From positions 1-64,000 of IMG/VR virus record IMGVR_UViG_3300023175_002299: 64,000 nt of DNA, one strand, 5' to 3'. The DNA comes from an uncultured virus (IMG/VR IMGVR_UViG_3300023175_002299). Its lineage: Duplodnaviria > Heunggongvirae > Uroviricota > Caudoviricetes. Numbering within the stretch: the first letter of the stretch is position 1; each line of letters opens with the position of its first letter. Position numbers and translations under genes: made by a program. Shown one piece after another: positions 8,914 to 60,140 of the stretch. The notes below the pieces were generated by a model. That model had not been told where the DNA came from. It made no database searches and worked only from the letters and a program-made list of their open reading frames with translations.

Positions 8914-8923
8914 GGGAAAGACA

Positions 8924-37601: not shown

Positions 37602-37928
37602 ATGAATATGACAGTTTTTCATACCAATACCAAACCCCGTAAAAAGAAGCCTCGTGGAAAAGGATGGCAGAACAAGGTGTATTATCAGAAAATGAAAAAA
37701 CCTGAGTTCACCGAGTATGTTGCTCCACAAACTTTTTACAGATCGGCTGATCATCGTGATAAATATCCTAGTGTAGATAGTTTTGGTTCTGCTGATGCAT
37801 GTTCAAAGAAAGAACCAATGAAATACACGGGTACACTAATTAAAGGCATTGCTACGATGCATAAATCTAATGCGGTGCCAGTTATTGATCAACAACAAGC
37901 GGAAGATATCTCCCGAATGAGAAGGTAA
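37602..37928 (+). CDS. Conserved T4-like hypothetical protein
   Basis: YTGTLIKGIATMHKSNAVPV...ISRMRR. Confidence 0.7.
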   Translation: MNMTVFHTNTKPRKKKPRGKGWQNKVYYQKMKKPEFTEYVAPQTFYRSADHRDKYPSVDSFGSADACSKKEPMKYTGTLIKGIATMHKSNAVPVIDQQQAEDISRMRR

Positions 37929-38638
37929 TGAAACCAACTCCAAACTCACTACTTGCTGGACAAGTAATTGCACAACTTTCAGTATTAGGAATGTTCTTTG
38001 CTACTCCGATGGAGTGGGCTATTACATTCTTTATGTATTGCGGTATCATGTTGGGTATCACAGTAGGATATCATAGGTATTGGTCTCACTATTGTTTTAC
38101 TGCTCCAAATTGGTTTGTTTATTTGATGACCTTTTTTGCTCACATCATGATGGTTGGGCCAGCACTAGCATGGGCAGCACAACACCGAGAACACCACAAG
38201 TTTGCTGATACAGAAAAAGACCCACACTCGCCTGAGTATCGTGGATTTATTCGTTGTTATTTTTCTCAGGTAAAATCTTTACCTAGAATGAAGTTTGTCA
38301 CTGATCTGTTGAGAAATGACTTTCTAAAAGCGCAACACCGATATTACTGGCATGTTATTGTTGTGTGGGCTGCAACACTCTTCCTAATTGATCCATTTGC
38401 AGTGATCTATGCATGGTTGGCCCCAGCAGGATTTGCTAAACTCATCGGATCAATTGTCTTTATACACTCTCACCGTGGAGGAAAACCCAGAAGCGATCAT
38501 TGGTTGGGTATTGCTACTCTTGGAGAAGGATATCACTCAAATCATCACAAACAACCGTGGGACTGGCAGTTTCACAAGTATGATGTGGGTGGCATGTTGA
38601 TAGGTTTGTTTGAGGACACTTTTAGGATTTCAAAATGA
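37928..38638 (+). CDS. Membrane fatty-acid desaturase (delta-9-like)
   Basis: His boxes HRYWSH, HREHH, GEGYHSNHH; DPHSP; TM segments. Confidence 0.9.
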   Translation: MKPTPNSLLAGQVIAQLSVLGMFFATPMEWAITFFMYCGIMLGITVGYHRYWSHYCFTAPNWFVYLMTFFAHIMMVGPALAWAAQHREHHKFADTEKDPHSPEYRGFIRCYFSQVKSLPRMKFVTDLLRNDFLKAQHRYYWHVIVVWAATLFLIDPFAVIYAWLAPAGFAKLIGSIVFIHSHRGGKPRSDHWLGIATLGEGYHSNHHKQPWDWQFHKYDVGGMLIGLFEDTFRISK

Positions 38639-39366
38639 ATTTAGTTAATCATGATTATATTGAATTTCCTTTTGTGGAATTTGATTTTTCCATCTGTGAA
38701 AGAATACCCTACAAACACCAACTGGAAACTCATCCACACATGCCAAAACATGTGTTGCAACACATTTGCAGCATGATTCCAGAAGATGAACTGAAAGAAA
38801 TTATTGATACCAGTTATTATTTTCTCACGGATACATATGGAGAAAAGTCTGTACAATCTCAATCGGACAAAAAAATATTGATTGAAGATTTCCCCTTTAA
38901 CGAGATACACGATAGAGCAAAATTAACTGTACAACACTATCTAGAGTCTGCACAAGGATCGTTTACTTTTTTGTTCGGAAATAATCAATACAGACCCCCA
39001 ACCGCAAAACTTTTTCAACACGCCCATGCGGTAAACTTTATTGAAGGTGTTGAAAATAGAAGAACGTTTACGGTCATCTATCCATTGAAACAAGATTTGC
39101 CAGTCACGGAAAAGTTTCATATATTTCATACCGACAACACTCCTTGGGTAGAGAACAAGGACTTATACCATATGTTAAGGTTACCATTTATAACTCCTGT
39201 CCCAGATGAAGGTGTTGTTAGTATAGACTTTCCAAAAAAAGGTGAAATGTTATTGTTAGAATTCAATTCTGTAAATGGTGTACATTGGATTGATGGATTG
39301 GATGAAAATAATTATATGTGTCACGTTTTCGATGCAGCTATTTTGAGAGAACCTTTCCATGCTTAA
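38635..39366 (+). CDS. Hypothetical protein, possibly 2OG-Fe(II)/cupin fold
   Basis: HAH...FTVIYPL...FNSVNGVHWI. Confidence 0.35.
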   Translation: MNLVNHDYIEFPFVEFDFSICERIPYKHQLETHPHMPKHVLQHICSMIPEDELKEIIDTSYYFLTDTYGEKSVQSQSDKKILIEDFPFNEIHDRAKLTVQHYLESAQGSFTFLFGNNQYRPPTAKLFQHAHAVNFIEGVENRRTFTVIYPLKQDLPVTEKFHIFHTDNTPWVENKDLYHMLRLPFITPVPDEGVVSIDFPKKGEMLLLEFNSVNGVHWIDGLDENNYMCHVFDAAILREPFHA

Positions 39367-40057
39367 GAAAAGACAGTTGCCTGCCTGTGCGCCAATTCCA
39401 AATATTAAGTTTGATATTGGGATGATGAAAGAAGAATTGTCTCGTATAGGAGACAAGTGGCAGAATATTTACGATGCAAACCCAGGCATAACCAAGTTGC
39501 ACGATCAGGGTTTCCTTGCACAGATTTACAGCACTCTTCATGAAATACCTCTGATGTCAATGTCTCCAGAAAATATGAAGAAGGCAGAAGAGTTTGAAAT
39601 TACTGATATTGGTAAATCAAAAATTGAGAGGGTGAGAAACAAATCCGCAAAGGGTGACAATTTACCACCAACTGCAAATGAAATGTTGTGGGACTATCCT
39701 TTGGAAGATTATACTGGGAGTTATTTTGAAAAGGCTATTACAGAAAATTTCAAAGCAGAAGTGTGTCGTGCTAGGATACACTTACTGGAGCCAGGCAAAG
39801 ATATCTCGCCCCATATTGACTATGATCCTTCTTATGGCGTTCGTGTCATTTGTCCCATATCAGGTACAGAAGGGACAACAAACTTTTTTTGGTATAATGG
39901 TGAGAAACAATCTTACAATCTCAAAGCGGATGGGTCAGTCTACTTCTTAAATACAGGATTTAGACATTCCGTGGAGAATCGTGGAACGGAGAATAGAGTT
40001 GCTTTGGTATGGACATTGAAATCCCAAGAAGACATCGAATGTCTGGCTTTGAAATAA
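39359..40057 (+). CDS. Aspartyl/asparaginyl beta-hydroxylase-like 2OG-Fe(II) oxygenase
   Basis: LEPGKDISPHIDYD...NTGFRHSVENRGTENRVALV. Confidence 0.75.
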   Translation: MLKKRQLPACAPIPNIKFDIGMMKEELSRIGDKWQNIYDANPGITKLHDQGFLAQIYSTLHEIPLMSMSPENMKKAEEFEITDIGKSKIERVRNKSAKGDNLPPTANEMLWDYPLEDYTGSYFEKAITENFKAEVCRARIHLLEPGKDISPHIDYDPSYGVRVICPISGTEGTTNFFWYNGEKQSYNLKADGSVYFLNTGFRHSVENRGTENRVALVWTLKSQEDIECLALK

Positions 40058-40626
40058 CCACATACGCCCCAGATAAAAAATCAGAAGTAGAAACTTTTAG
40101 AGAATTGTCCTTTGCAGAGGGCAACGATAGTTTAGCTTATGACAAGTATGATCCCGATAACATTGATGGGGAAACTTGGTTGGTTTATGTAGATGGTGAA
40201 CTTGCATGTATTAGTGTGGCAGAATCCAGTCATTACACCAGCGACCCAGAAATATCCGCAAGAATATGTAGACTTCACATTGCAAAGAAGTTTAGACCAG
40301 CATGGTTGGGTATACCAATTCTACCCTATCAGATAGAATGGGCTAGACAAAGGGGGTTTAAGGTGTTATACTTTACTCATGATATCAACAATCGTGCGAT
40401 AAATTTGATGTACCAACATAAAAGATTTGGTGCCGCAGTTACCCCGTTGCAAAAACAAATCAAGGATATGTGGCATAGTGATTGGTATAAAGCATTGAAA
40501 ACAGACGATAGATATTTCTTTCAAGTCGATTCAAATAGTGATCTACTGCAATACATCTATTATTGGACATTAGAAGATGGGTTTGTTTGGAATCCAGTTT
40601 CTAATGTTGTTAGGAGAACATCTTGA
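40009..40626 (+). CDS. GNAT-like acyltransferase
   Basis: ARICRLHIAKKFR...QIEWARQRGFKVLYFT...N. Confidence 0.5.
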   Translation: MDIEIPRRHRMSGFEITTYAPDKKSEVETFRELSFAEGNDSLAYDKYDPDNIDGETWLVYVDGELACISVAESSHYTSDPEISARICRLHIAKKFRPAWLGIPILPYQIEWARQRGFKVLYFTHDINNRAINLMYQHKRFGAAVTPLQKQIKDMWHSDWYKALKTDDRYFFQVDSNSDLLQYIYYWTLEDGFVWNPVSNVVRRTS

Positions 40627-41216
40627 TTTTTTCTATTGATACAATGTCTTCTTGGTTTAATTATATGAGAGAAAACCCAGACGACAGACGATTCCTAGAA
40701 TGTTTTTGGGATACCCAATTACAAAGCAAAGAAAGAGTAATTGAACTCTACCCAGAATTCTTGCACGGCCCATGTTATATCTTCGGTGGGTGGTATGGCG
40801 TCCTTGCAAAGATGATTGAAGATAACAGGTTTGTCTCTGATGTCAACTCTATTGATGTTGATGCAAAGTGTGAAGAAGTCGGCAACAAATATTTTTCTAG
40901 TCAGTTTGTTAATTTTATTACTGCCGACATGAAAAACTTTTCTTACGACAAAGACCCAGATGTTGTTATCAATACAAGTACGGAACACGTTGATCAAGAA
41001 ACTTTTGATTCTTGGTATAACAATATTCCAGACGGTACTTTTGTTATCATGCAAGGCAACAATTTAATCATACCAGAACACATAAGACCCTTTAATAATT
41101 TAGATGATTTTGTTATGCGAAACAAGTGTTCGGTGACACACGCAGAGGAAATGGAACTGCCGGGCCCAAACAATACAACATATAAAAGATTTACGGTGAC
41201 AGGTTACAAAGAATGA
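40623..41216 (+). CDS. SAM-dependent methyltransferase-like protein
   Basis: IFGGWYGVLA, SIDVD, VVINTSTEH. Confidence 0.6.
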   Translation: MIFSIDTMSSWFNYMRENPDDRRFLECFWDTQLQSKERVIELYPEFLHGPCYIFGGWYGVLAKMIEDNRFVSDVNSIDVDAKCEEVGNKYFSSQFVNFITADMKNFSYDKDPDVVINTSTEHVDQETFDSWYNNIPDGTFVIMQGNNLIIPEHIRPFNNLDDFVMRNKCSVTHAEEMELPGPNNTTYKRFTVTGYKE

Positions 41217-41959
41217 AAATTGCTATAGTTGGTTATGGTTTTGTTGGTAAATCAACGGAATTGCTTTTTAGTGAACATGAGTGTTTGATACACGATCCAG
41301 CTTTGGGTTATGAAATTAAATCTTGGTCTGATGTTCAATATACTTTTATTTGTGTTCCAACTCCTATTAATGATTTTACCAAAAAGGGTTTGTCAAAATC
41401 TGTAGTCAAGGATGCTATTAGGGAAGTTAGGAGTAAAACTAGCAAATCAAACCGTGGTGGTAAGATTGTTGTCAGAAGCACTCTAGGCCCAGATCAATTG
41501 GAAGATGATTGGATTTACATGCCGGAGTTTTTGAGAGAAAATCACTGGAAAGAGGATACAATGGATCATCGCAAATCGGTGATAATTGGTGCTAGTGATG
41601 AAGAAGATTTTTTTGCCCTTCAGTACGCTTTGCCATTCATGAAAACCGCTCATCGTGTCTCACCCAGAGAAGCTGCGATATATAAGATGAGTAGAAATTC
41701 TTTACTTGCAGCTAGAGTCATGTTTGCAAATCATGTTTATGATGTTTGTGAAAAAAATGGTGCCGATTACAATAATATAAAAAAATTGTATGTGGTTGAG
41801 AATGAATTTGGTTGGACACATTGGGATGTCCCCGGCCCAGATGGTAAACGTGGATTTGGGGGCAAGTGTCTACCAAAAGACACAAAACATTTTGCAAATT
41901 TGATTTCTGATAAAAACATGTTCACCCAAATTTTAGAAGACAATGAAAACTCCCGTTGA
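41213..41959 (+). CDS. UDP-glucose/GDP-mannose dehydrogenase family (short form)
   Basis: IVGYGFVG, FICVPTP, VVRST, PEFLRE, GFGGKCLPKD. Confidence 0.88.
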   Translation: MKIAIVGYGFVGKSTELLFSEHECLIHDPALGYEIKSWSDVQYTFICVPTPINDFTKKGLSKSVVKDAIREVRSKTSKSNRGGKIVVRSTLGPDQLEDDWIYMPEFLRENHWKEDTMDHRKSVIIGASDEEDFFALQYALPFMKTAHRVSPREAAIYKMSRNSLLAARVMFANHVYDVCEKNGADYNNIKKLYVVENEFGWTHWDVPGPDGKRGFGGKCLPKDTKHFANLISDKNMFTQILEDNENSR

Positions 41960-43250
41960 ATATTACAAAGAGTTGCAGGACAGGTACGATAAAGTCGGGC
42001 CTGGATTTTGTGTGCTCAAATGGCATCATTTGGAAATGCATCTCAGTTCTGCTCAAAGTCATTCTTGTTTCCATTGTCCACAAAGACACATAGATTTGGA
42101 AGAAGACTTCCACAACACAGAACAAAAGATGCGACAAAGAAAAACAATGCTGGAAGGTGGTCGCCCAGTGGAGTGTTTTTATTGTTGGAATGTTGAAGAC
42201 AGTGGTTCTATTAGTCCGAGGATTGCATTAACTCCAATATACACGGAGATGCAATCAGATATTATTGAGACTACTGCTAGGATGCAGTGGGACGAACCAG
42301 TATATCCAAAATACTTGGAGATGAGTTTTAGTAACAAGTGTCAGATGAAGTGCAGTTATTGTTCCACGCAGAACAGTTCTTCATTGCACGAAGAAATCAA
42401 AAAATTTGGCGAGTATCCTTTGATACACCCAGAAAACAATTCCCAGTATGTTTCTCATGGAAGAGAAAACTTGTGGCCAGAAAACAGTGAAATGTATGAC
42501 AAGTTTTGGAAGTGGATAAGAGAAGCAGTCATGCACTTACAAGTAATTAGGATTACTGGCGGCGAACCTTTGTTGAGCGAACATACATTCAAACTGGCAA
42601 AGTTTATTCGCAATCATCCCAACGGAGAAAATATTGCATTTCATGTCAACAGCAACCTATCTGTTTCTACGAGACGGGTTGATAGAATAATAAAAACCAT
42701 GTCCGAGATGAAGTCACCCAAGATTTATGCCAGTGTTGATACTTTGGGTGAACAGGCAGAATGGATTCGCCACGGACTGAATTGGAAAACATTTGAAATC
42801 AATCTGGTTCAAATTTTGAATGCTAGTATTCCAGTTGGATTAATGGTAACATTTAATCTCCTGAGTATTCCTAAGTTCAAAGAATTTCTTGGATATGTTT
42901 TGGAATTAAAAAGACTTGGCGATGTAAAACTTGATACTCCTTATATGACAAATCCCAAACATCTTTCTGCTTTAATACTTGACGACAATATGATGAATAT
43001 GTTGAAAGATGCTGAAAAATTCATGGAACAGAATACGGATGACGGCGACAATTTAAAATTTAATTCTGGTGAGTTGCAAAAATTTAAAACTGTTGTTAAA
43101 TGGGTAGAAAAAAATAGGTTTGTTGAAGAAGACCTAAATACTCATAGAAAAGATTTTAAACTTTTTGTCGATGAACACGATAAACGCAGAAATGTTAGTT
43201 GGCATGATGCGTTTCCAGAATTACAATATTTTTATGATGAGATATCATGA
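41943..43250 (+). CDS. Radical SAM protein 1 (N-terminal twitch/SPASM-like Cys cluster)
   Basis: CQMKCSYC; ITGGEP; FCVLKW...SCFHC...ECFYCW. Confidence 0.88.
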   Translation: MKTPVEYYKELQDRYDKVGPGFCVLKWHHLEMHLSSAQSHSCFHCPQRHIDLEEDFHNTEQKMRQRKTMLEGGRPVECFYCWNVEDSGSISPRIALTPIYTEMQSDIIETTARMQWDEPVYPKYLEMSFSNKCQMKCSYCSTQNSSSLHEEIKKFGEYPLIHPENNSQYVSHGRENLWPENSEMYDKFWKWIREAVMHLQVIRITGGEPLLSEHTFKLAKFIRNHPNGENIAFHVNSNLSVSTRRVDRIIKTMSEMKSPKIYASVDTLGEQAEWIRHGLNWKTFEINLVQILNASIPVGLMVTFNLLSIPKFKEFLGYVLELKRLGDVKLDTPYMTNPKHLSALILDDNMMNMLKDAEKFMEQNTDDGDNLKFNSGELQKFKTVVKWVEKNRFVEEDLNTHRKDFKLFVDEHDKRRNVSWHDAFPELQYFYDEIS

Positions 43251-46112: not shown

Positions 46113-46113
46113 A

Positions 46114-51958: not shown

Positions 51959-53117
51959 AATTTGTTTACTGCCTTGGATACACACCGAGTTTACTACAGA
52001 AGGTACTGCCAAACCATGTTGTTTATATCGTGGTGAACCAATGGGGAATCTCAAAGAAGAATCCTTGATGGACATTTGGAGTGGCGAAAAGTACAATAAT
52101 CTGCGACAAGAATTTCTTGATGGAAAAATGCCTTCTGGTTGTGCTATGTGTTGGCAGAACGAAGATGCTGGATACAAGTCAAAAAGATTGCAAGATATCG
52201 ACAGGTTTTCTAATCATGTAGACAAAATAGGAAAAGATATAACTCCCCCAGTTTATCTTGATTTAAAGTTTGGTACATTGTGTAATCTAAAATGTCGATC
52301 TTGTGGAAGTGTAAACTCTTCCAGTTGGAAGGCAGATGAAATTAAAATGTACGGAAGAGTGCTTGATAACAAAGATGCTTTGTGGGTGAAAAAGAATCCT
52401 GGCGTCTGGGAAGAACTTGATAAAATTATGCCGACAGTAGAACATATGGATTTTACTGGTGGAGAACCTTTTATGATAGATCAACATTTTGATCTGTTGC
52501 GACATGCAGTTGATTCTGGTTATGCCAAGAACATTGCCATACATTACAATACAAACGGAACAATTAGACCCCCCAAAGAAATATTTGATCTGTGGAAAGA
52601 ATTTAAACACTGTGAAATCATGTTCAGTATAGATGGCGTTGGAGAACAATTTGAGTATATTCGCAGTGGTGCTGTGTGGGATGAGGTTTGGGAAAACTTC
52701 AATCATTTCAAATCCCATAAATTTCTCAACATACAAATATGTCATACTGTTAGTTTGTTTAACGTATATTATTTGAATGATTTTGTAGAAACATTTGATG
52801 GTAATAACATTTATTTCAATTTGTTGCACTTCCCCAGACAATATTGTGTTCGTAATATGCCAGATTCCAGCAAAGATAAAGTTCGTGAGAAAATTATAAA
52901 TATTCCCAACACCGATGCCATTATAAACTTTATGATGCAAGAGGCCGAACACGATAAGTTAGACTTGGGTTTCATTGCGGTGACAGAAAGACTTGACTCA
53001 GTAAGAGAAGAAGACTACAAAAAAACTTTTCCAGAATTTTATGAGATTTTAGTAGATGGCGGCATCAGAAACAGACCTTGGGAATATCCAGACTTTATTA
53101 CAAAAAGTTCTGGATGA
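51951..53117 (+). CDS. Radical SAM protein 7
   Basis: CNLKCRSC; TGGEP; CLLPWIH...PCC...CAMCW. Confidence 0.9.
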   Translation: MDKICLLPWIHTEFTTEGTAKPCCLYRGEPMGNLKEESLMDIWSGEKYNNLRQEFLDGKMPSGCAMCWQNEDAGYKSKRLQDIDRFSNHVDKIGKDITPPVYLDLKFGTLCNLKCRSCGSVNSSSWKADEIKMYGRVLDNKDALWVKKNPGVWEELDKIMPTVEHMDFTGGEPFMIDQHFDLLRHAVDSGYAKNIAIHYNTNGTIRPPKEIFDLWKEFKHCEIMFSIDGVGEQFEYIRSGAVWDEVWENFNHFKSHKFLNIQICHTVSLFNVYYLNDFVETFDGNNIYFNLLHFPRQYCVRNMPDSSKDKVREKIINIPNTDAIINFMMQEAEHDKLDLGFIAVTERLDSVREEDYKKTFPEFYEILVDGGIRNRPWEYPDFITKSSG

Positions 53118-54765: not shown

Positions 54766-55789
54766 TTATTTTACGAATGGGCCATCAATAAAATCTGGCA
54801 ACAACCAGATTACAGATTTTGACAGGGTTTTTTTCAAAAGGATTCTTGAACTTATACCAGATGATGTTTGTCTTATTGATACCACTTGGATAAATGATCC
54901 AATAACATTTCAAAAATTTGTTGATTGGCAAATTACTACAGACAAAAAAAGAGCATTTCTATATTCTGGTATGGATTGGATGAATACACACTGCGAACCA
55001 GTGTGTACTGCTGCTCATATATTTCTACAATATAGATTTGATTGCACTCATATTGGAAACACTTCTGAGGGACACTATTTCAGTTTTTGGGTTGAATTTA
55101 TAGATTTTTACAAAAAATATTTTTTTGATGAATGCTACACATCAAAACCAAATTTACAATATCATTTTATGTGTTTAAATAACAAACCCAATGATCATAG
55201 AAGGCACTTGTTAAATAAGATTTTTGAACAAGAAACAATTTATAAAAAAGGAAACATATCTGTATTACAAAGAGACGCCGGATACAATTTTGAACACCCA
55301 ATTATTCTTGAAGAAAATAGACCACCAGAACTGGTAAATATGTTTTATGACCACGAAGTTTTATCTGACAAACATATAGCAAATGATATAATTTCTCTGG
55401 GAGACCCAACGCATTGGAACTCCCACTTTGTCAATGTTGTTACGGAAAGTGCTGCTCATACAGATGTTTTTCTGAGCGAAAAGATTTTTAAACCAATTAT
55501 AGGATTAAGACCTTTTCTTGCTTTGGGGGATAGAAACTTATACCCAAAACTAAGAGAATTTGGATTCGATACTTTTGAAGATTTGTTTCCCAATGTTGGA
55601 CTTGATGTTGATAGAGATCAAAGAACTGACAACTTGGTAAAGGATTTAAAAAAGGTGTGCCTTACTCCCATAGAAGAACTTGACAGAATTTATTCTTCCA
55701 TATATAATAGGTTGGAAAATAATCGTAATCTAATGATAGAATTAATCACAAAAAACAAACAATGGATAGAGGATTTGAAAACATTATGA
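54758..55789 (+). CDS. Glycosyltransferase-like protein ('SEK' variant)
   Basis: CLNNKPNDHR...VVTES...FLSEKIFKP...GFDTF. Confidence 0.5.
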   Translation: MTDYFTNGPSIKSGNNQITDFDRVFFKRILELIPDDVCLIDTTWINDPITFQKFVDWQITTDKKRAFLYSGMDWMNTHCEPVCTAAHIFLQYRFDCTHIGNTSEGHYFSFWVEFIDFYKKYFFDECYTSKPNLQYHFMCLNNKPNDHRRHLLNKIFEQETIYKKGNISVLQRDAGYNFEHPIILEENRPPELVNMFYDHEVLSDKHIANDIISLGDPTHWNSHFVNVVTESAAHTDVFLSEKIFKPIIGLRPFLALGDRNLYPKLREFGFDTFEDLFPNVGLDVDRDQRTDNLVKDLKKVCLTPIEELDRIYSSIYNRLENNRNLMIELITKNKQWIEDLKTL

Positions 55790-56946
55790 AAATTGGTTTT
55801 ATTGGATTTGGCAAACTGGGTCAACCCTGTGGAGAGGTGATTGCAGAGAAAGGACACGATGTTGTAGCTTATGATGTTGCAACGATTGACACCGATATTG
55901 ATATGCGACCAACGATCAAAGATACTGTTGCAGATAGAGATATTGTTTTTGTCGCTGTCCCCACCCCACACGATCCAGAATATGGCGGAGAGACTCCAAC
56001 ATATCACTTACCACCAAAAGACTTTGGATATGGGATTGTTCAACATGTTATAGAAGAAGCAAATAATCATATGAACAAGGATCAGTTGCTTGTTCTTATC
56101 AGTACTGTTTTGCCTGGCACTGTACGCAGAGAATTTGTACCTCTAGTCACAAACACTCGATTTGTATATAATCCCTACCTTATTGCCATGGGAACTGTTG
56201 CATGGGATATGGTGAATCCAGAGATGGTTATGATCGGCACTGAAGATGGTACTGAAACTGGTGATGCAAAAGAACTCAAAGAGTTTTATGAGTCTATTAT
56301 GGAAAACGACCCACGATATGTAATAGGTACATGGGATGAGTGCGAGTGCATCAAAGTATTTTACAATACGTTTATCAGTGCGAAGATCGGTTTGGTAAAC
56401 ATGATACAAGATGTTGCAGAACAACAGGGTAATATTGATGTGGATGTTGTTGCAAATGCTTTGAGAGATAGTACTCAGAGGATTATGGGGCCTGGGTACA
56501 TGAAGCCTGGGATGGGTGATGGTGGTGCATGTCATCCCAGAGACAACATTGCACTTAGATTCATGTCTGACAATCTATCCTTGGGATATGATCTTTTTGC
56601 AGAGATTATGAAAGCCAGAGATGTTCAAGCAGAAAATATGGCTAGAGCAATTTGTGAACACGGGTATGAAGTTTATTTCACTTCCGATTCCTACAAACCA
56701 CATGTAGATTATACAAATGGTAGTTATAGTCTTTTGGTGCAACATTATGTCGAAAAATTTAATACTAATGTAACCAAAGACATAGATCAAGCAGATGTTA
56801 TTGTAAGAGTGCATGAGTCCGATGAAATTAATGAAGAAGAATTAGTCCCAGGCGTAGTTATTTTTGATCCTTGGAGAACGTATGAATTAAAAACTAAATC
56901 CCATATTGTAGTCCATTATGGTAATACTAGGTCATGCAAAAAATAA
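55786..56946 (+). CDS. UDP-glucose/GDP-mannose dehydrogenase family
   Basis: IGFIGFGKLG, FVAVPTP, ISTVLPGT, GDGGACHPRDN. Confidence 0.9.
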   Translation: MKIGFIGFGKLGQPCGEVIAEKGHDVVAYDVATIDTDIDMRPTIKDTVADRDIVFVAVPTPHDPEYGGETPTYHLPPKDFGYGIVQHVIEEANNHMNKDQLLVLISTVLPGTVRREFVPLVTNTRFVYNPYLIAMGTVAWDMVNPEMVMIGTEDGTETGDAKELKEFYESIMENDPRYVIGTWDECECIKVFYNTFISAKIGLVNMIQDVAEQQGNIDVDVVANALRDSTQRIMGPGYMKPGMGDGGACHPRDNIALRFMSDNLSLGYDLFAEIMKARDVQAENMARAICEHGYEVYFTSDSYKPHVDYTNGSYSLLVQHYVEKFNTNVTKDIDQADVIVRVHESDEINEEELVPGVVIFDPWRTYELKTKSHIVVHYGNTRSCKK

Positions 56947-57764
56947 AATGTGTTCCTACAGAACATAATACTGCATTTGGGTTGTCCGGCATAGGCGCTG
57001 CTGGTGATCTACATTTTAATACCGTATTAGAATGGTTTCCCACTGACGAAAAAAGTTTGTATGAAGAAAACTTTTTAAAATACCCAGAAATTATGAAAAG
57101 ATGGGAGAACGTTGATATAACCTATGAAATTAACGAGTATGGTTTTCGGTCTCCTTCTTTTTATGACTCTGATAATAATATAGTTTTTCTAGGATGCAGT
57201 ATTACTACTGGTATTGGGTTGCCCCTTGAAAAAACTTTTGCATATTCGATATCCAAAAAACTGGGAATGAATTTATGTAACCTTTCTGTACCAGGCAGAT
57301 CAAATGATACTTGTTATAGATTGGGGTCTTTTTGGATACCAATATTAAAACCAAAACTTGTTATATGTTTTGTAGTATCTAAATCGAGAAAGGAAATTAA
57401 AATTTCTAATGGAAATGGAGATATATCATTTTATCACAATTTTCTTCCAGCAAAATCCGATGAAACAAAAATTTTAAATTCCGACTTCGGAGATTTTTAT
57501 GCACAATGGTGTCTCAATGAGGAAAATCTAAATTATAATATGCAAAAAAATATGGATGCTTTGGAAACGGTATGTTCTAGAAACGGTTCCAAATTTTATT
57601 GTTTTGATGAGGTCTTTATTACTGAGAAATACCTCAATCCAGCTGGAAGACTTCATTTGGGGGGTTTGAAATATCGTGCTAGAGATTTACTGCATCCAGG
57701 CGAACAAGAAAACGAATTTATCACAAAAACAATTTTAGGAGAACTGGGATATGAAAAAAATTAA
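56934..57764 (+). CDS. SGNH-like protein
   Basis: NEYGFRS...LGCSITTG...NLSVPGRSND...RDLLHPG. Confidence 0.55.
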   Translation: MQKIKCVPTEHNTAFGLSGIGAAGDLHFNTVLEWFPTDEKSLYEENFLKYPEIMKRWENVDITYEINEYGFRSPSFYDSDNNIVFLGCSITTGIGLPLEKTFAYSISKKLGMNLCNLSVPGRSNDTCYRLGSFWIPILKPKLVICFVVSKSRKEIKISNGNGDISFYHNFLPAKSDETKILNSDFGDFYAQWCLNEENLNYNMQKNMDALETVCSRNGSKFYCFDEVFITEKYLNPAGRLHLGGLKYRARDLLHPGEQENEFITKTILGELGYEKN

Positions 57765-57873
57765 AAAGTTTTTTCTCGGTATAAAACAAAAGTTTGACGA
57801 TTGGAAAATGCGCCGAAGAATAAAAAAGAAAATGAAAGAAATTAGGGAGAGAGACCCATTTATCTATGATTAA
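57751..57873 (+). CDS. Small basic protein ending DPFIYD (40 aa, not in ORF track)
   Basis: AGGAG upstream; MKKIKKFFLGIKQKFDDWKMRRRIKKKMKEIRERDPFIYD; overlaps both neighbours. Confidence 0.6.
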   Translation: MKKIKKFFLGIKQKFDDWKMRRRIKKKMKEIRERDPFIYD

Positions 57874-59296
57874 TTGGGGGATCAGTGCTGGTTATCATGA
57901 CGCAGCTCTTTCTGTCATAAAAGATGGGGAGATAGTTTTTGCTAGCCATGCAGAAAGATACTCTGGTTACAAGAATGACAAATATTTAAATGATAATTTG
58001 TTGAATGATGCTTTGCAGTATGGGGAACCAGATAAAATGTACTGGTATGAGAACCCCATACTCAAAGCTACTAGAAGGTTGTATTCCAGACAACCAAATC
58101 CTTGGGTAAATCCAAGGTCTTATTTTGACAAATTAAAATATCAACCAACGTGCAAAATAAAGTGGGGGAATCATCACCGTAGTCATTTTGCAGCTGGGTA
58201 TTACACTAGACCATTTGATGATTGTGCTACTCTTGTTATTGATGCAATTGGTGAGTGGGTTACTACTTCCATCTGGGATAATGACAAATTAGTTTGGTCT
58301 AGGAAATATCCAAATTCTCTCGGTTTGTTCTACTCTGCTTTTACTGATAGGGTTGGATTGAAGGCAAATGAGGATGAATATATTCTAATGGGAATGTCTG
58401 CCTATGGAGACAAATATAGATTTTCAAAGGAAATATCAGATTTACTTGCAAACAAAACACCATTTCATCGTGGAGTAAAATGGTGGAGACCAGAATTAGA
58501 ACCAGAAGACTATTTTGATGTTGCTGCTGGAGTGCAATCCGTATATGAAAAATGGTTGGGTGCTCTTTTACATTTAACAGCAGAACTAACTCGCAAAAGA
58601 GATTTGGTTTTTATGGGTGGATGTGCTCTAAACTGTCTTGCCAATAGATTGTTACCAGATTTTTTTAGAAAATATTGGATAATGCCCAATCCAGGCGATG
58701 CTGGGTCTTCTCTTGGAGCAGTTCTTGCTGGTACAAAACAGAGAGTTGATTTTAAAACTGCCTATTTGGGACACGACATCAAAGGAGAATATCCAGTCGA
58801 TGCAGTACTTCATGAATTGATGACATCTGGGATGGTCGGAGTAGCTTCTGGTAGAGCTGAATTTGGCCCTCGTGCTTTGGGTAATCGGTCTCTGTTGGCT
58901 GATCCTAGAGGCCAAGATATGAAAGATAAAGTAAACTCAATAAAAAGACGACAGGAGTTTAGACCTTTTGCTCCAGTGATTAGACAGTGTGATGCACAAC
59001 ACCACTTCGATGTTGATGTCTTTTTTAATTCTCCATACATGCAAGAAGTTGTTAGGTGTAAAGAACCAGAAAAATATCCAGCAATAGTACATAAGGATGG
59101 TACTAGTAGAGTGCAGACAGTAAGTTATGCACATCATCCAGAATTATATGTGTTGCTTACTAAGTGGTATGAGGAAACTGGATGTCCAATGTTGCTCAAT
59201 ACTAGTTTGAACATAAAGGGTAAACCAATTGTAAATAATAGAATTGATGCTGATGTATTTGAAAATTTCTATGGAGTAAAAGTGTGTACCCCGTAA
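57866..59296 (+). CDS. Carbamoyltransferase (NodU/CmcH/TobZ family)
   Basis: HDAA, HHRSH, IDAIGE, GGCALN, GDAG, EFGPRALGNRSLLADPR, FRPFAP, LNTSLN. Confidence 0.93.
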   Translation: MINWGISAGYHDAALSVIKDGEIVFASHAERYSGYKNDKYLNDNLLNDALQYGEPDKMYWYENPILKATRRLYSRQPNPWVNPRSYFDKLKYQPTCKIKWGNHHRSHFAAGYYTRPFDDCATLVIDAIGEWVTTSIWDNDKLVWSRKYPNSLGLFYSAFTDRVGLKANEDEYILMGMSAYGDKYRFSKEISDLLANKTPFHRGVKWWRPELEPEDYFDVAAGVQSVYEKWLGALLHLTAELTRKRDLVFMGGCALNCLANRLLPDFFRKYWIMPNPGDAGSSLGAVLAGTKQRVDFKTAYLGHDIKGEYPVDAVLHELMTSGMVGVASGRAEFGPRALGNRSLLADPRGQDMKDKVNSIKRRQEFRPFAPVIRQCDAQHHFDVDVFFNSPYMQEVVRCKEPEKYPAIVHKDGTSRVQTVSYAHHPELYVLLTKWYEETGCPMLLNTSLNIKGKPIVNNRIDADVFENFYGVKVCTP

Positions 59297-60135
59297 AATA
59301 CTTGGATGACGTAATAAAGATAAATGGTATTCATTTTTATGGATGTTCTTTTACTGCTGGAGAAGAACTAGCAAATGAAGAATTTTTGCCCCTAATTGGA
59401 AAATGCGAAGACTCAGACCAACGTGAGTTATTGAGACAAAAACACGAAAAGATAGAAAAACAACTTGCGTATCCACAACACCTTTGTAATAAATTGGGAA
59501 TAACTAATGTTTACAATAGAGGTCAAAGGGGCAACTCTATTGATAATATGCGATCACAATTTTTCAATGATGTAATTCATGAAAAAATTTCTGATACACA
59601 TCTCTGTATGTTTGGAACTACTGGGTTTTTTCGAGAAGTTGGTTTTCATTCACTAGAACATTGGGCAGAAATTGGCAGGAGTAACATAGACGAAAGATAT
59701 AGGGGATGTGCTTTCAATAGAGTCGTTCCCACCCATCACGATAGAGGGGGTGATCATGAGTTTGCTTTAAAATATTTCAGAGAAAGACACTCATGGATTC
59801 ATTTTTATGAGTATATGAATAATCTCAGAGACATTTTGTATATTGCTAACAGGAATAATATACCTGTTATTTTTGTTGAGTGTCTTGAAAGAATTAATGT
59901 ACAATATTTTGAAAAAGTTTATTTGAAGAAACATGAACAACTTAAACACCTTGATTATGAATACAAAGATAATCTTCTTTTTATCGAAAAAGAGATAAAT
60001 AGACATATGATAACGGATAAGGGTTTCTCTGAATATAATGATAAACATGGAGACAAGCGAATGCCCAGAGGACATCCGTGTTTACAGGCTCACATAGAGT
60101 GGGGAGAGCATTTAGCTGATTGTTTAAAAGTATAA
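59284..60135 (+). CDS. SGNH-like protein
   Basis: YGCSFTAG...NRGQRGNS...GHPCLQAH. Confidence 0.55.
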   Translation: MYPVKYLDDVIKINGIHFYGCSFTAGEELANEEFLPLIGKCEDSDQRELLRQKHEKIEKQLAYPQHLCNKLGITNVYNRGQRGNSIDNMRSQFFNDVIHEKISDTHLCMFGTTGFFREVGFHSLEHWAEIGRSNIDERYRGCAFNRVVPTHHDRGGDHEFALKYFRERHSWIHFYEYMNNLRDILYIANRNNIPVIFVECLERINVQYFEKVYLKKHEQLKHLDYEYKDNLLFIEKEINRHMITDKGFSEYNDKHGDKRMPRGHPCLQAHIEWGEHLADCLKV

Positions 60136-60140
60136 GAAAA

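What the first reader, a model, noticed from the sequence alone, without database searches (positions are those of the whole stretch)
37928..60135. ~22 kb phage-encoded biosynthetic-style cluster of tailoring enzymes
Seen: about 21 co-oriented, tightly packed genes: desaturase, two or three 2OG-Fe(II)-like oxygenases, GNAT-like, methyltransferase-like, two nucleotide-sugar dehydrogenases, seven radical SAM enzymes, three glycosyltransferase-like proteins, a sulfotransferase-like protein, two SGNH-like proteins and a carbamoyltransferase. An epimerase lies nearby (63052). Established: these families build and decorate sugars (oxidation, carbamoylation, acylation, methylation) in natural-product and surface-glycan pathways. 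Inference: the phage makes a heavily modified glycan or glycoconjugate for the virion, the host surface or its DNA. The product is unknown to me and does not match a phage pathway I can name.
Basis: partly seen in the sequence, partly recalled or inferred. Interest (0 to 1): 0.85.

Follow-up and report, generated by a model that had tools for sequence, protein, structure and literature searches.

The report
Phage radical-SAM sugar-tailoring operon
An uncultured marine T4-like phage devotes about 23 kb to one tightly packed operon of seven untested iron-sulfur "radical SAM" enzymes, sugar-transferase-like, esterase-like and carbamoyl-adding enzymes plus a tiny conserved peptide; it most likely builds a heavily edited sugar decoration whose identity and target are still unknown.

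Summary
The cluster is real. From 37602 to 60449 I count 25 co-oriented ORFs; 23 of 24 junctions overlap. It lies in a T4-like phage whose complete 165.6-kb version is in IMG/VR.

Confirmed:
- seven NF033640 "N-terminal twitch" radical SAM enzymes
- three GT-B-fold glycosyltransferase-like paralogues
- two SGNH/DUF6071-like proteins
- two atypical NDP-sugar dehydrogenases
- a NodU-family carbamoyltransferase
- a delta-9-type desaturase
- a cupin hydroxylase
- weaker GNAT and methyltransferase assignments

The sulfotransferase label and two of the "2OG" labels found no support.

Among 80 phage loci, the recurring core is five radical SAM orthogroups, GT-B proteins and the carbamoyltransferase. 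A 33-40-residue peptide ending RDPFIY also recurs (window 57751-57873; 49 of 52 carbamoyltransferase loci). The desaturase, hydroxylase, GNAT and methyltransferase arm is confined to a sub-lineage.

All products except the desaturase look soluble. The complete genome has no dCMP-hydroxymethylase family gene, so cytoplasmic glycan or glycoconjugate tailoring is the best reading and DNA modification is unlikely. The product is unknown.

This scan has met the same kind of array on other phage DNA many times. I found no paper on its chemistry.

The parts
37602..37928 (+). 108-aa basic protein, first ORF of the operon
   Evidence: phrog_27048, unknown function, E 8e-20; overlaps the next ORF by 1 nt
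37928..38638 (+). Membrane fatty-acid desaturase, delta-9 type
   Evidence: PF00487 E 6e-13; His boxes HRYWSH, HREHH, HSNHH and 3 TM-like segments; homolog in 4 of 80 loci
38635..39366 (+). 243-aa acidic protein, unknown function; weak 2OG-oxygenase lead
   Evidence: No Pfam, NCBIfam or PHROG hit; Atlas score 0.81 to viral clusters of which 31-43% carry 2OG-FeII_Oxy: a lead only
39359..40057 (+). Cupin hydroxylase of the Asp/Asn beta-hydroxylase family
   Evidence: PF05118 E 1.5e-5, 25.3 bits against cut-off 22.6; 89% identical ortholog in L012
40009..40626 (+). GNAT-like acyltransferase (weak)
   Evidence: PF00583 E 0.019; profile A10 hits PDB GNATs at E 9e-4, 2e-3 and 4e-3
40623..41216 (+). 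Class I SAM methyltransferase-like / aminopropyltransferase-like protein (weak)
   Evidence: Profile A5 hits 3dtn methyltransferase at E 4e-4 and spermidine synthases at E 0.017
41213..41959 (+). Short NDP-sugar dehydrogenase-like protein (248 aa)
   Evidence: PF00984 E 5e-13, PF03721 E 2e-10; TIGR03026 at 100 bits, below cut-off 189.8; GGKCLPKD Cys motif
41943..43250 (+). N-twitch radical SAM, subgroup A (rare orthogroup: 7 of 80 loci)
   Evidence: NF033640 E 2e-87; CX3CX2C plus 4 N-terminal Cys
43247..44626 (+). N-twitch radical SAM, subgroup A (core orthogroup: 71 of 80 loci)
   Evidence: NF033640 E 1e-95
44619..46112 (+). N-twitch radical SAM, subgroup A (core orthogroup: 74 of 80 loci); 57.6% identical ortholog in Ralstonia phage RsoM2USA
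   Evidence: NF033640 E 6e-89
46114..46656 (+). 180-aa protein, unknown function; variable insert
   Evidence: No family hit; absent from L012; homolog in 4 of 80 loci
46646..47647 (+). GT-B-like paralogue (C-terminal domain shared with 53056 and 54758); variable insert
   Evidence: Cluster-1 HMM E 7e-21; blastp to 53056 E 1e-6; absent from L012
47637..48938 (+). N-twitch radical SAM, subgroup B (core orthogroup: 65 of 80 loci)
   Evidence: NF033640 E 3e-96; SPASM at residues 8-83 ahead of the radical SAM core
48935..49456 (+).
   Evidence: No hit in any library; absent from L012
49453..50721 (+). N-twitch radical SAM, subgroup B (17 of 80 loci)
   Evidence: NF033640 E 4e-105
50714..51958 (+). 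N-twitch radical SAM, subgroup B (core orthogroup; used as the search bait)
   Evidence: NF033640 E 1e-122; AF2 model pLDDT 87.1; Foldseek hits SkfB, anSME, CteB, viperin, SuiB, BlsE, MoaA
51951..53117 (+). N-twitch radical SAM, subgroup B (core orthogroup: 75 of 80 loci)
   Evidence: NF033640 E 4e-111
53056..54765 (+). 569-aa GT-B-fold glycosyltransferase-like protein
   Evidence: AF2 pLDDT 86.5; VIA Z 11.3 to H. pylori alpha-1,3-FucT (rmsd 5.7, 283 aligned), 10.8 FUT9, 10.3 T4 BGT, 9.9 Gtf3; Foldseek E 4e-4; no Pfam hit
54758..55789 (+). 343-aa GT-B-like paralogue
   Evidence: Cluster-1 HMM E 5e-64; blastp to 53056 E 6e-7
55762..56946 (+). NDP-sugar dehydrogenase-like protein (394 aa)
   Evidence: PF03721 E 5e-17, PF00984 E 1.5e-15; phrog_9148 E 7e-96; TIGR03026 at 132 bits, below cut-off 189.8; homolog in 10 of 80 loci
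56934..57764 (+). SGNH/DUF6071-like protein; variable insert
   Evidence: Cluster-17 HMM E 7e-7; GCS block I in A4; absent from L012
57751..57873 (+). 40-codon micropeptide gene ending RDPFIY-D; its stop overlaps the carbamoyltransferase start
   Evidence: Motif found in 49 of 52 carbamoyltransferase loci and 5 of 28 others. 313 representative clusters at E<=1e-3. Unannotated copy in RsoM2USA.
57866..59296 (+). NodU/NolO/CmcH-family O-carbamoyltransferase
   Evidence: PF16861 E 3e-49, PF02543 E 6e-34; phrog_1601 E 7e-91; 52 of 80 loci; 47% identical to the RsoM2USA copy
59284..60135 (+). SGNH/DUF6071-like protein
   Evidence: Cluster-17 HMM E 4.5e-9; the same HMM hits the three Pfam-DUF6071 proteins of RsoM2USA at E 1e-25 to 3e-30. 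GCSFT block I and C-terminal GHP..H. Profile A4 hits GDSL protein 4rsh at E 1.9e-4.
60120..60449 (+). 109-aa protein, unknown function; last ORF of the operon
   Evidence: 77% identical ortholog in L012; 9 of 80 loci
36441..37520 (-). Divergently transcribed 359-aa protein with a signal-peptide-like start and a 180-residue Asn/Thr/Ser-rich tract (candidate glycan acceptor; speculative)
   Evidence: N 21%, T 18%, S 12%; 23 N-X-S/T sequons, 6 Cys in the C-terminal domain; found next to the operon's left end in 3 of 5 related records, the other 2 being cut off there

Best explanation
This is a late-acquired, operon-packed island of a marine T4-like phage. It works in the infected cell's cytoplasm to assemble and chemically edit a sugar-bearing product.

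Inferred division of labour:
- The two dehydrogenase-like enzymes, with the nearby epimerase, adjust nucleotide sugars.
- The three GT-B-fold proteins transfer sugars to an acceptor.
- The seven N-terminal-twitch radical SAM enzymes belong to individually conserved, non-redundant orthogroups. Each would perform a different radical C-H chemistry on the sugars, such as oxidation, epimerisation, deoxygenation or C-C/C-methyl formation.
- The carbamoyltransferase, acting together with or under control of the RDPFIY micropeptide, adds carbamate groups. The two SGNH proteins add or remove ester groups.
- The desaturase/hydroxylase/GNAT/methyltransferase arm is a lineage-specific accessory that may add and modify an acyl substituent.

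Shown here: gene content, packing, conservation, purifying selection, folds and co-occurrence.
Inferred: that the substrates are sugars, the order of steps, and the acceptor. I favour a protein (a virion fibre or the adjacent exported Asn/Thr/Ser-rich protein) over host envelope glycan, and either of these over DNA.
For: 1. Packing: 23 of 24 junctions overlap.
2. All seven radical SAMs match NF033640 end to end above the cut-off. All keep CX3CX2C, GGEP and four N-terminal Cys.
3. Orthologs are far closer than paralogues: 76-90% to L012 against 21-37% between paralogues. The RsoM2USA enzyme is 57.6% identical to 44619 but 38% and 30% to its two sisters. pN/pS is 0.09-0.22 for the radical SAMs, against 0.13 for PhoH, with dS saturated.
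4. In 80 phage loci chosen by homology to 50714 (not dereplicated, cut at 10 kb or at contig ends), these co-occur: orthogroups 43247 (71 loci), 44619 (74), 47637 (65) and 51951 (75); the GT-B family (62 loci, 159 proteins); and the carbamoyltransferase (52 loci). Gene order is conserved.
5. 53056 has a GT-B fold. All 50 VIA rows shown are GT-B proteins, nearly all glycosyltransferases (one is the pseudo-glycosyltransferase VldE), and the best is Z 11.3.
6. Vibrio phage K566 interleaves four N-twitch radical SAM genes with two GT8 genes and one GT4-like gene. RsoM2USA has one radical SAM, three DUF6071 proteins, the micropeptide and the carbamoyltransferase.
7. In bacteria, 7 of 18 examined N-twitch radical SAM loci carry GT1/GT2/GT4, carbamoyltransferase, GDSL, NDP-sugar epimerase or DegT genes.
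8. Only the desaturase has TM-like segments of any length. No flippase, polymerase or Gtr-type gene was hit.
9. Short contigs at 99% or more identity, from four metatranscriptome runs, lie scattered over the operon (8-17 of 30 bins). This is presence in RNA libraries, not proof of transcription.
Against: - No member of NF033640 has a known reaction. My literature searches found none.
- The nearest solved folds of the radical SAM model are mostly peptide- or protein-modifying enzymes (SkfB, anSME, CteB, SuiB), alongside nucleotide or sugar enzymes (viperin, BlsE, MoaA). The fold therefore does not favour sugars.
- The GT-B proteins match no Pfam glycosyltransferase family, and I did not check donor-binding residues.
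- Both dehydrogenase-like proteins score below the NDP-sugar dehydrogenase cut-off and lack a detectable C-terminal domain.
- No initiating or lipid-carrier enzyme, and no acceptor, was identified.
- 11 of 18 bacterial contexts are uninformative, and one carries a PqqD/RRE-type gene typical of peptide maturation.
- The left arm and several inserts are not conserved with the core, so 'one pathway' is not shown.
Confidence: 0.55

Rival explanations
1. Host-envelope remodelling. The operon alters the host's nucleotide-sugar pool or its LPS/capsule precursors, so that the infected cell's surface changes (superinfection exclusion or serotype conversion). This was proposed for the glycosyltransferase-rich host-recognition cluster of pelagimyophages.
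For: PMC7029224 (passages read) reports LPS-related genes, UDP-glucose 6-dehydrogenase, glycosyltransferases and radical SAM cassettes in the hypervariable host-recognition cluster of pelagimyophages, and argues for O-chain modification. The window's RNR is closest to Pelagibacter phages (56-57%), and the phage is T4-like. Bacterial homolog loci include UbiA-GT4 fusion proteins and membrane-associated glycan genes.
Against: No membrane-embedded transferase, flippase, polymerase or polyprenyl-phosphate enzyme is present in the operon; only the desaturase has clear TM segments. The same core module occurs in phages of very different hosts and habitats, with contigs up to 346 kb, in Ralstonia and Vibrio phages. 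That fits a phage-intrinsic target better than one host's O-antigen.
Confidence: 0.17
2. Peptide or protein maturation. The twitch/SPASM radical SAM enzymes modify a peptide or protein rather than sugars. Candidates are the RDPFIY micropeptide as a RiPP- or cofactor-like precursor (as in mycofactocin or PQQ, recalled) that is then glycosylated and carbamoylated, or side chains of a virion or exported protein.
For: The top structural neighbours of the 50714 model are peptide maturases: SkfB E 1.4e-6, anSME 1.2e-5, CteB, SuiB. Secondary NCBIfam hits are sactipeptide, ranthipeptide and cyclophane maturases. A conserved 33-40-aa ORF with an invariant Tyr-containing C-terminus sits in the module. 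One bacterial homolog locus has a PqqD/RRE gene next to the radical SAM. From recall: HypF, a relative of this carbamoyltransferase superfamily, carbamoylates a protein C-terminus.
Against: The micropeptide tracks the carbamoyltransferase (49 of 52 loci), not the radical SAM arrays. Four loci with 4 or more radical SAM genes and at least 5 kb on both sides have neither. No RRE/PqqD domain, protease or exporter was hit in the window. K566 has four radical SAM genes with glycosyltransferases but no peptide motif. Arrays of 5-8 distinct radical SAMs for one 33-residue peptide would be unusual.
Confidence: 0.13
3. Mosaic of unrelated auxiliary genes. The 23-kb block is a hypervariable dumping ground in which several independent small modules merely sit side by side without a common product: lipid desaturation, a hydroxylase, a radical SAM cassette, and a carbamoyltransferase pair.
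For: Low and falling G+C (0.34-0.38 against 0.39-0.44 elsewhere). Four genes are absent from a 78%-identical relative. The left-arm genes occur in only 4-9 of 80 loci and the dehydrogenase in 10. PMC7029224 describes gain of radical SAM cassettes between close relatives.
Against: Near-total translational coupling across all 25 ORFs. The core order (radical SAM, GT-B, radical SAMs, carbamoyltransferase) is conserved across dozens of divergent contigs. The left arm recurs in the same order directly upstream of the array in L012, L020, L032, L036 and L037. Mosaic growth does not exclude a shared product.
Confidence: 0.1
4. DNA hypermodification. The GT-B proteins glycosylate phage DNA as T4 beta-glucosyltransferase does, and the other enzymes tailor the attached sugar.
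For: T4 BGT is among the best structural matches of 53056 (Z 10.3). The phage is T4-like. The window also encodes DNA-methyltransferase-like proteins and nucleotide-metabolism genes.
Against: The complete genome G001 has no PF00303 member (dCMP hydroxymethylase/ThyA family), but does have ThyX and dCMP deaminase, which are routes to ordinary dTMP. The Z values of BGT, fucosyltransferases and Gtf3/GtfC lie within about 1.5 of each other, so the fold does not single out BGT.
Confidence: 0.05

Closest known systems
NCBIfam NF033640, N_Twi_rSAM (twitch domain-containing radical SAM protein)
   Same: All seven enzymes match the model end to end at 294-410 bits against a cut-off of 170. The auxiliary Cys-rich SPASM/twitch-like domain precedes the radical SAM core.
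   Different: The family is a catalogue entry with no described reaction; nothing was found in the papers searched. Here it occurs as seven old paralogues in two subgroups inside one operon.
Host-recognition cluster of pelagimyophages (Zaragoza-Solas et al. 2020, PMC7029224) and Fe-S-rich marine T4-like genomes (Nishimura et al. 2017, PMC5332604)
   Same: Marine T4-like phage. A hypervariable island holds glycosyltransferases, UDP-glucose-dehydrogenase-like genes, an Asp/Asn beta-hydroxylase and radical SAM cassettes. A Cas4-like nuclease lies nearby.
   Different: Those papers list the genes and propose O-antigen modification, without analysing the radical SAM family, the conserved core, the carbamoyltransferase-micropeptide pair or the lack of membrane machinery. 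Adjacency to tail-fibre genes is not shown in this window.
Nod-factor tailoring enzymes (NodU/NolO carbamoyltransferase, NodS methyltransferase, NodZ fucosyltransferase, NodH sulfotransferase, NodA acyltransferase); comparison recalled from general knowledge
   Same: The same kinds of decoration are encoded side by side: O-carbamoylation (best NCBIfam hit NodU), a fucosyltransferase-like GT-B fold, methyltransferase-like and acyltransferase-like proteins, and a fatty-acid desaturase.
   Different: There is no NodC-type chitin synthase, NodB or NodA homolog. NodU scores 121 bits against an equivalog cut-off of 1000. Seven radical SAM enzymes have no counterpart in Nod-factor synthesis.
Cytoplasmic glycosylation of serine-rich-repeat adhesins (Gtf3/GtfC) and virus-encoded virion glycosylation (chloroviruses, mycobacteriophages; recalled)
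   Same: Soluble GT-B enzymes; Gtf3 and GtfC are among the best fold matches (Z 9.6-9.9). An exported Asn/Thr/Ser-rich repeat protein is encoded next to the operon.
   Different: No sequence-level relation. No accessory Sec genes. Whether the neighbouring protein is glycosylated is untested.
SxtI-SxtJ-SxtK type arrangement: O-carbamoyltransferase with small adjacent ORFs (PMC2885083, passage read); Pfam SxtJ and DUF5989
   Same: A bacterial homolog locus (L130) has DUF5989 (49 aa, E 2e-25), SxtJ-like and carbamoyltransferase genes in a row. The DUF5989 protein ends ...APFIYSLF, and the phage peptide ends RDPFIY and sits directly before the carbamoyltransferase.
   Different: The phage peptide has no hydrophobic segment and does not match DUF5989 (no Pfam hit at E<=10; hhalign probability 3% over 5 columns). 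Homology is not shown. That DUF5989 corresponds to SxtK is my recollection, not a tool result.

Membership tests
NF033640 N_Twi_rSAM | Full-length match above the curated cut-off (170 bits) | tested here: met
   7 of 7 proteins, 293.7-410 bits, covering model positions about 1-398
NF033640 N_Twi_rSAM | Radical SAM CX3CX2C cluster motif and an N-terminal auxiliary Cys-rich (twitch/SPASM-like) domain | tested here: met
   CX3CX2C, GGEP and four N-terminal Cys are invariant in 7 of 7. Pfam SPASM lies N-terminal to Radical_SAM in 4 of 7.
NF033640 N_Twi_rSAM | A defined reaction or substrate | not testable with these tools
   No characterised member found: (0 papers for 'N-terminal twitch', 'N-terminal SPASM', NF033640); no PDB sequence relative at E<=0.01
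GT-B glycosyltransferase superfamily | Two Rossmann-like domains (GT-B fold) | tested here: met
   53056 model pLDDT 86.5. All 50 VIA rows are GT-B proteins, nearly all glycosyltransferases, with best Z 11.3, rmsd 5.7, 283 aligned. 54758 and 46646 share its C-terminal half.
GT-B glycosyltransferase superfamily | Sequence membership in a described GT family (for example GT10, PF00852) | tested here: not met
   No Pfam family at E<=5 for 53056, 54758 or 46646; only an Atlas lead to GT10 at 0.76
GT-B glycosyltransferase superfamily | Nucleotide-sugar binding residues / transferase activity | not tested
   Residue-level comparison with FucT or BGT active sites was not done
SGNH/GDSL hydrolase superfamily (via Pfam DUF6071) | Block I Gly-Asp/Cys-Ser near the N-terminus, a Gly/Asn block, and a C-terminal catalytic His | tested here: met
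   A4 has invariant G20, S22 and H264, nearly invariant P265, and a GxSN block. The classical DxxH is replaced by GHP...H.
SGNH/GDSL hydrolase superfamily (via Pfam DUF6071) | Profile-level relation to known members | tested here: met
   Profile A4 against PDB: GDSL protein 4rsh E 1.9e-4, further esterases E 0.011-0.05. The cluster-17 HMM links 59284 (4.5e-9) and 56934 (7e-7) with the three Pfam-DUF6071 proteins of RsoM2USA. Pfam itself gave no hit for the two window proteins.
NodU/CmcH O-carbamoyltransferase family | Carbam_trans_N and Carbam_trans_C domains above their cut-offs | tested here: met
   118.5 and 167.3 bits against cut-offs 24 and 27
NodU equivalog (NF041651) | Score at or above 1000 bits | tested here: not met
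   121.3 bits
UDP-glucose/GDP-mannose dehydrogenase family | N-terminal NAD domain, central domain with catalytic Cys, C-terminal nucleotide-sugar domain; TIGR03026 at or above 189.8 bits | tested here: not met
   The N-terminal and central domains are hit in both proteins. A Cys motif is present (GGKCLPKD in 41213; GGACHPRD seen by eye in 55762). No C-terminal domain hit was found, and TIGR03026 scores 100 and 132 bits. Both are therefore family-like but atypical.
Pelagimyophage host-recognition cluster | T4-like genome; hypervariable island holding tail fibres plus LPS-type genes | tested here: inconclusive
   Gp23 capsid hit in the complete genome and matching island content. But no tail-fibre gene was identified beside the operon, and the host is unknown.
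RiPP / peptide-derived cofactor system | Precursor peptide, RRE (PqqD-like) domain, protease or exporter | tested here: inconclusive
   A candidate peptide exists. No PqqD/RRE, protease or transporter family was hit in the window. The peptide follows the carbamoyltransferase, not the radical SAMs.
Gtr-type seroconversion / O-antigen modification modules | Membrane flippase, bactoprenol glycosyltransferase, integral-membrane transferase | tested here: not met
   No such Pfam or NCBIfam hit. Multiple TM-like segments occur only in the desaturase.
T4-type DNA glucosylation | dCMP hydroxymethylase (PF00303 family) supplying hydroxymethyl-pyrimidine | tested here: not met
   0 matches in the complete 165.6-kb genome, with the control ringing in 10 of 14 genomes. 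ThyX is present.
Pfam DUF5989 (small partner of bacterial carbamoyltransferases) | HMM match; central hydrophobic segment | tested here: not met
   0 of 7 phage peptides scanned hit DUF5989 at E<=10, while the bacterial 49-aa protein scores E 2e-25. hhalign probability 3%.

The most novel reading that the evidence does not exclude
The N-terminal-twitch radical SAM enzymes are a new class of glycan-editing catalysts. Five to eight of them per phage would each carry out a distinct radical transformation on the sugars of a phage-made glycan. That glycan would be built by novel GT-B transferases on a protein acceptor, such as the adjacent exported Asn/Thr/Ser-rich protein or a virion fibre. It would be finished by a two-component carbamoylation unit, the carbamoyltransferase plus the RDPFIY micropeptide. 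This would be a widespread, undescribed radical route to hypermodified viral glycoconjugates.
Probability: 0.3. Interest if true: 0.85.

Novelty: new variant of a known kind. Interest (0 to 1): 0.68.

Why it matters
The bait protein has 5,696 relatives at E<=1e-10 in the protein collection. Yet no reaction is known for the family.

An operon that couples five or more such enzymes to sugar transferases and a carbamoyltransferase points to unexplored enzymology. It also points to a phage-made glycoconjugate that could shape host recognition, superinfection exclusion or virion stability in abundant marine phages.

The conserved micropeptide is missed by annotation even in a cultured phage genome. 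It gives a concrete handle on how NodU-type carbamoyltransferases may be partnered or regulated.

Tried and rejected
- Megablast of the whole block against 50,697 phage records: no match.
- phmmer of 53056, 54758, 50714 and the 739-aa neighbour against PDB sequences: nothing useful.
I repeated it with an alignment of closer homologs.
- Fusion proteins: five N-terminally extended homologs (583-639 aa) were scanned with Pfam and with my neighbour-family HMMs. The extensions matched nothing, and a sixth long homolog is two radical SAM units. So I got no Rosetta-stone link to glycosyltransferases.
- Complex prediction of carbamoyltransferase plus micropeptide gave no verdict (score 0.00 against a mark of 0.32, controls not run). 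This is neither for nor against binding.
- Sigma-70-like promoters, terminators and the T4 late motif TATAAATA are not above shuffled expectation, so no transcript map is claimed.
- HMMs of the other families of the canonical jumbo-phage module (c2, c5, c6, c7, c8, c9, c10) find nothing in the window or in the complete genome. One c4 copy lies elsewhere in the genome.
- Profile of 46114 against PDB: no hit.
- hhalign of the micropeptide against DUF5989: only the 5-residue PFIY stretch aligns.
- Parts of the operon without metatranscriptome contigs carry no meaning.
- Literature searches that returned nothing on function. For some searches I saw listings only.

Full report
**Setting**

The window is part of an IMG/VR virus record of 72.7 kb, which CheckV rates 44% complete. 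A second IMG/VR contig of 165,637 bases, rated 100% complete, holds a near-identical copy of the region: three of its proteins are 100% identical, and the DNA over the whole block is not letter for letter the same. That contig encodes a T4-type major capsid protein (PF07068, E 1e-142).

Window bases 1-32,000 encode phage replication and nucleotide genes: primase, ThyX-type thymidylate synthase, both RNR subunits, dCMP deaminase, exonuclease and endonuclease VII. After the block come PhoH, a Cas4-like PD-(D/E)XK nuclease, a cell-wall hydrolase and an NDP-sugar epimerase. Beyond the window lie gp59, gp32, a B12-type radical SAM and baseplate genes.

The RNR large subunit is closest to an Alcaligenes phage (62%) and an unnamed faecal phage record (63%), followed by a series of Pelagibacter phages (55-57%). 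DNA runs holding the block are labelled salt-marsh and marine metagenomes.

**The observation**

From 37602 to 60449 there are 25 + strand ORFs. Of 24 junctions, 23 are overlaps of 1-62 nt and one is a 1-nt gap; the next gene (PhoH) follows after 214 nt. G+C falls to 0.34-0.38 in the right half, against 0.39-0.44 in the rest of the window.

Curated models confirm the following:
- the desaturase
- a cupin hydroxylase of the Asp/Asn beta-hydroxylase family
- two NDP-sugar-dehydrogenase-like proteins
- seven radical SAM enzymes
- the carbamoyltransferase

The desaturase has the HX4H, HX2HH and HX2HH boxes typical of delta-9 desaturases. It is the only product with several TM-like segments.

Both dehydrogenase-like proteins are atypical. 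They score 100 and 132 bits against a cut-off of 189.8 for TIGR03026, and no C-terminal domain is detected.

**The radical SAM enzymes**

All seven match NCBIfam NF033640 ('twitch domain-containing radical SAM protein') over its whole length, with E values from 2e-87 to 1e-122. Pfam places a SPASM domain before the radical SAM core in four of them. In all seven, four N-terminal cysteines, the CX3CX2C motif and a GGEP motif are invariant.

They form two subgroups: 41943, 43247 and 44619 against 47637, 49453, 50714 and 51951. They are old paralogues:
- Each is 76-90% identical to its ortholog in the related contig L012 but only 21-37% identical to its sisters.
- Ralstonia phage RsoM2USA carries an enzyme that is 57.6% identical to 44619.
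- pN/pS against L012 is 0.09-0.22, similar to PhoH at 0.13, with synonymous sites saturated.

So there is no sign of relaxed selection.

An AlphaFold model of 50714 (pLDDT 87.1) resembles many radical SAM enzymes of mixed substrate class. SkfB, anSME, CteB and SuiB act on peptides or proteins; viperin, BlsE and MoaA act on nucleotides or sugars. The fold therefore does not reveal the substrate. No PDB chain is related by sequence at E<=0.01.

**The proteins without Pfam hits**

GT-B-like proteins:
- 53056 (569 aa) has 26 relatives in the large protein collection, none of them named.
- With 23 of these as an alignment, it folds confidently (pLDDT 86.5) into a GT-B glycosyltransferase fold.
- VIA-align gives Z 11.3 to H. 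pylori alpha-1,3-fucosyltransferase, 10.8 to FUT9, 10.3 to T4 beta-glucosyltransferase and 9.6-9.9 to Gtf3/GtfC. All 50 rows shown are GT-B proteins, nearly all glycosyltransferases. The Foldseek best E is 4e-4.
- 54758 and 46646 share its C-terminal half.
- An HMM built from the family in other phages also hits two ORFs outside the block, at 20861-21853 and 2-685.

SGNH-like proteins:
- 59284 and 56934 belong to a divergent family. Its HMM also hits the three Pfam-DUF6071 proteins of RsoM2USA and three more window ORFs (2792, 11707, 18059).
- The alignment shows a GDS/GCS block, a GxSN block and a C-terminal His.
- Its profile finds GDSL/SGNH esterases in the PDB, with a best E of 1.9e-4.

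Weaker assignments:
- 40009 is weakly GNAT-like.
- 40623 is weakly class I methyltransferase-like.

Unassigned: 38635, 46114, 48935, 37602 and 60120.

**What is conserved elsewhere**

Close relatives L012, L013 and L009 keep the gene order at 34-90% identity. However, they lack 46114, 46646, 48935 and 56934.

I analysed 80 loci with up to 10 kb of flank. These are the 77 new loci of that scan plus L009, L012 and L013 from the two earlier scans. They were selected by that bait and not dereplicated, and many are cut by contig ends.

| Gene type (best-hit assignment) | Loci of 80 |
|---|---|
| 43247 type radical SAM | 71 |
| 44619 type radical SAM | 74 |
| 47637 type radical SAM | 65 |
| 51951 type radical SAM | 75 |
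| 41943 type radical SAM | 7 |
| 49453 type radical SAM | 17 |
| GT-B family | 62 (159 proteins) |
| Carbamoyltransferase | 52 |
| Dehydrogenase (55762 type) | 10 |
| Methyltransferase-like | 9 |
| 59284 type | 7 |
| Hydroxylase | 6 |
| GNAT-like | 6 |
| Desaturase | 4 |

Loci hold 1-8 radical SAM genes, most often 5 (30 loci) or 6 (21 loci).

In most large-phage contigs (up to 346 kb) the order is highly conserved. A tail-fibre-like protein and six families of unknown function come first. Then follow radical SAM, GT-B and four radical SAMs, one more unknown family, and the carbamoyltransferase. Those extra families are absent from this window.

This phage therefore carries a variant of a widespread module. 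It has two extra radical SAM orthogroups and a lineage-specific left arm (desaturase, hydroxylase, GNAT-like, methyltransferase-like). That arm recurs in the same order in L012, L020, L032, L036 and L037.

Cultured phages carry reduced versions:
- RsoM2USA has one radical SAM, three DUF6071 proteins and a carbamoyltransferase that is 47% identical.
- Vibrio phage K566 has four radical SAMs interleaved with two GT8 genes and one GT4-like gene.
- KVP40-like phages have two copies.

None of these is annotated with a function.

**The micropeptide**

Following a lead in earlier notes of this scan, I looked upstream of the carbamoyltransferase. I found a 40-codon ORF at 57751-57873 whose stop overlaps the carbamoyltransferase start.
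- A peptide ending in the motif RDPFIY, followed by K or D, lies within 200 nt of the called carbamoyltransferase start in 33 of 52 loci.
- It occurs somewhere in the locus in 49 of 52 carbamoyltransferase loci, against 5 of 28 loci without one. Several of those 5 are cut off right after the peptide.
- The 25 copies I aligned were chosen because they carry the motif. They share a basic helix and the invariant C-terminus.
- A profile search of 1.84 billion representatives finds 313 clusters at E<=1e-3, mostly 33-50 residues long.
- RsoM2USA has an unannotated copy between two DUF6071 genes.

In a bacterial locus (L130), the carbamoyltransferase is preceded by a DUF5989 protein of 49 residues that ends APFIYSLF, and by an SxtJ-like protein. 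[quoted passage not shown]

The resemblance is suggestive, but homology is not shown: there is no Pfam hit, and hhalign gives a probability of 3%. Whether the peptide is a subunit, a leader peptide or a substrate is open.

**Which target?**

DNA: the complete genome has no PF00303 family member, although the control rang in 10 of 14 genomes. It does have ThyX and dCMP deaminase. The hydroxymethyl-pyrimidine route used for DNA glycosylation in T4 is therefore absent.

Host envelope: no flippase, polymerase, lipid-carrier transferase or Gtr-type protein is present. This argues for a cytoplasmic acceptor or for feeding host pathways.

Bacterial contexts: bacterial homologs (234 of the 274 pattern-matched stretches encode a relative; 63 loci of 10 kb or more were analysed) usually occur as 1-8 radical SAM genes. 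For Pfam, one search listed 157 neighbour proteins from 18 loci, of which I passed 100. Results:
- 7 of 18 loci carry GT1/GT2/GT4, carbamoyltransferase, GDSL, NDP-sugar epimerase or DegT genes.
- 1 of those 7 also has a PqqD-type gene.
- The other 11 are uninformative.
- Two 'Haliscomenobacter' MAG contigs carry the full phage-type module and may be phage DNA.

A possible acceptor: directly left of the operon, on the other strand, lies a 359-aa protein. It has a signal-peptide-like start, a 180-residue Asn/Thr/Ser tract with 23 N-X-S/T sequons, and a Cys-containing C-terminal domain. Homologs sit in the same place in 3 of 5 related records, and the other two contigs end at the operon edge. It is a possible glycan acceptor, but conserved position among close relatives is weak evidence.

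**Expression**

Four metatranscriptome runs (salt marsh, coded X16-X19) contain short contigs at 99% or more identity scattered over 8-17 of 30 bins of the operon. This shows presence in RNA libraries. DNA carry-over cannot be excluded, and no transcript structure can be read from contigs.

**Verdict**

The finding is real, and the sugar-tailoring interpretation is the best available at a confidence of about 0.55. The block is better described as a conserved radical SAM / GT-B / carbamoyltransferase / micropeptide core with lineage-specific additions.

Its presence in marine T4-like phages has been mentioned in print without a function (PMC5332604, PMC7029224; passages only). Earlier notes of this scan describe the same kind of array on other phage DNA many times, including a near-identical phage.

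The chemistry of the radical SAM family, the product and the acceptor remain unknown. Supplementary tables of the two phage papers were not consulted and may list these genes.

Noticed in passing
window 36441-37520 (-): A 359-aa protein with a signal-peptide-like N-terminus, a 180-residue Asn/Thr/Ser low-complexity tract (23 N-X-S/T sequons) and a Cys-containing C-terminal domain. It is transcribed divergently from the operon. It keeps this position in 3 of 5 related records; the other two are cut off there.
   Followed up: partly
window 34280-36499 (-), 33792-34280 (-), 32708-33775 (-): Three more minus-strand genes lie between the replication genes and the operon: a 739-aa protein with a signal-peptide-like start, a 162-aa coiled-coil protein and a 355-aa protein (phrog_1462). 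None has a family or PDB match, and whether they are fibre or surface proteins is open.
   Followed up: partly
window 2-685, 20861-21853, 2792-3610, 11707-12789, 18059-19081 (+): Further paralogues of the operon's GT-B-like family (2 ORFs) and SGNH/DUF6071-like family (3 ORFs) are scattered among the replication genes. The complete genome has 5 GT-B-like and 7 SGNH-like copies in all.
   Followed up: partly
L016 11168-11278 (+) (Ralstonia phage RsoM2USA, MG752970.1): An unannotated 36-codon ORF of the RDPFIY micropeptide family lies in the gap between annotated genes RsoM2USA_201 and _200, upstream of the carbamoyltransferase.
   Followed up: yes
G000 65959-67464 (L018 5959-7464, +), beyond the window: An eighth radical SAM enzyme of a different class (B12-binding domain plus radical SAM, 501 aa) sits after gp32 and before the baseplate genes.
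   Followed up: no
L130 2163-7849 (-) (Crocinitomicaceae chromosome): A bacterial locus with three N-twitch radical SAM genes also encodes a 1080-aa UbiA-prenyltransferase/GT4 fusion, a 49-aa DUF5989 protein, an SxtJ-like protein and a carbamoyltransferase in a row. GDSL and PhyH genes are nearby.
   Followed up: partly
L107 and L109 (contigs of one 'Haliscomenobacter sp.' MAG): Two contigs of 183 kb and 148 kb carry the complete phage-type module, including the micropeptide. They look like jumbo-phage DNA binned into a bacterial MAG, or prophages.
   Followed up: no
window 5407-6051, 8314-9589, 23901-24401 (+): A weak QueC-like hit and several DNA/tRNA-methyltransferase-like ORFs lie among the nucleotide-metabolism genes. 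They are possible minor DNA-modification functions unrelated to the operon.
   Followed up: no
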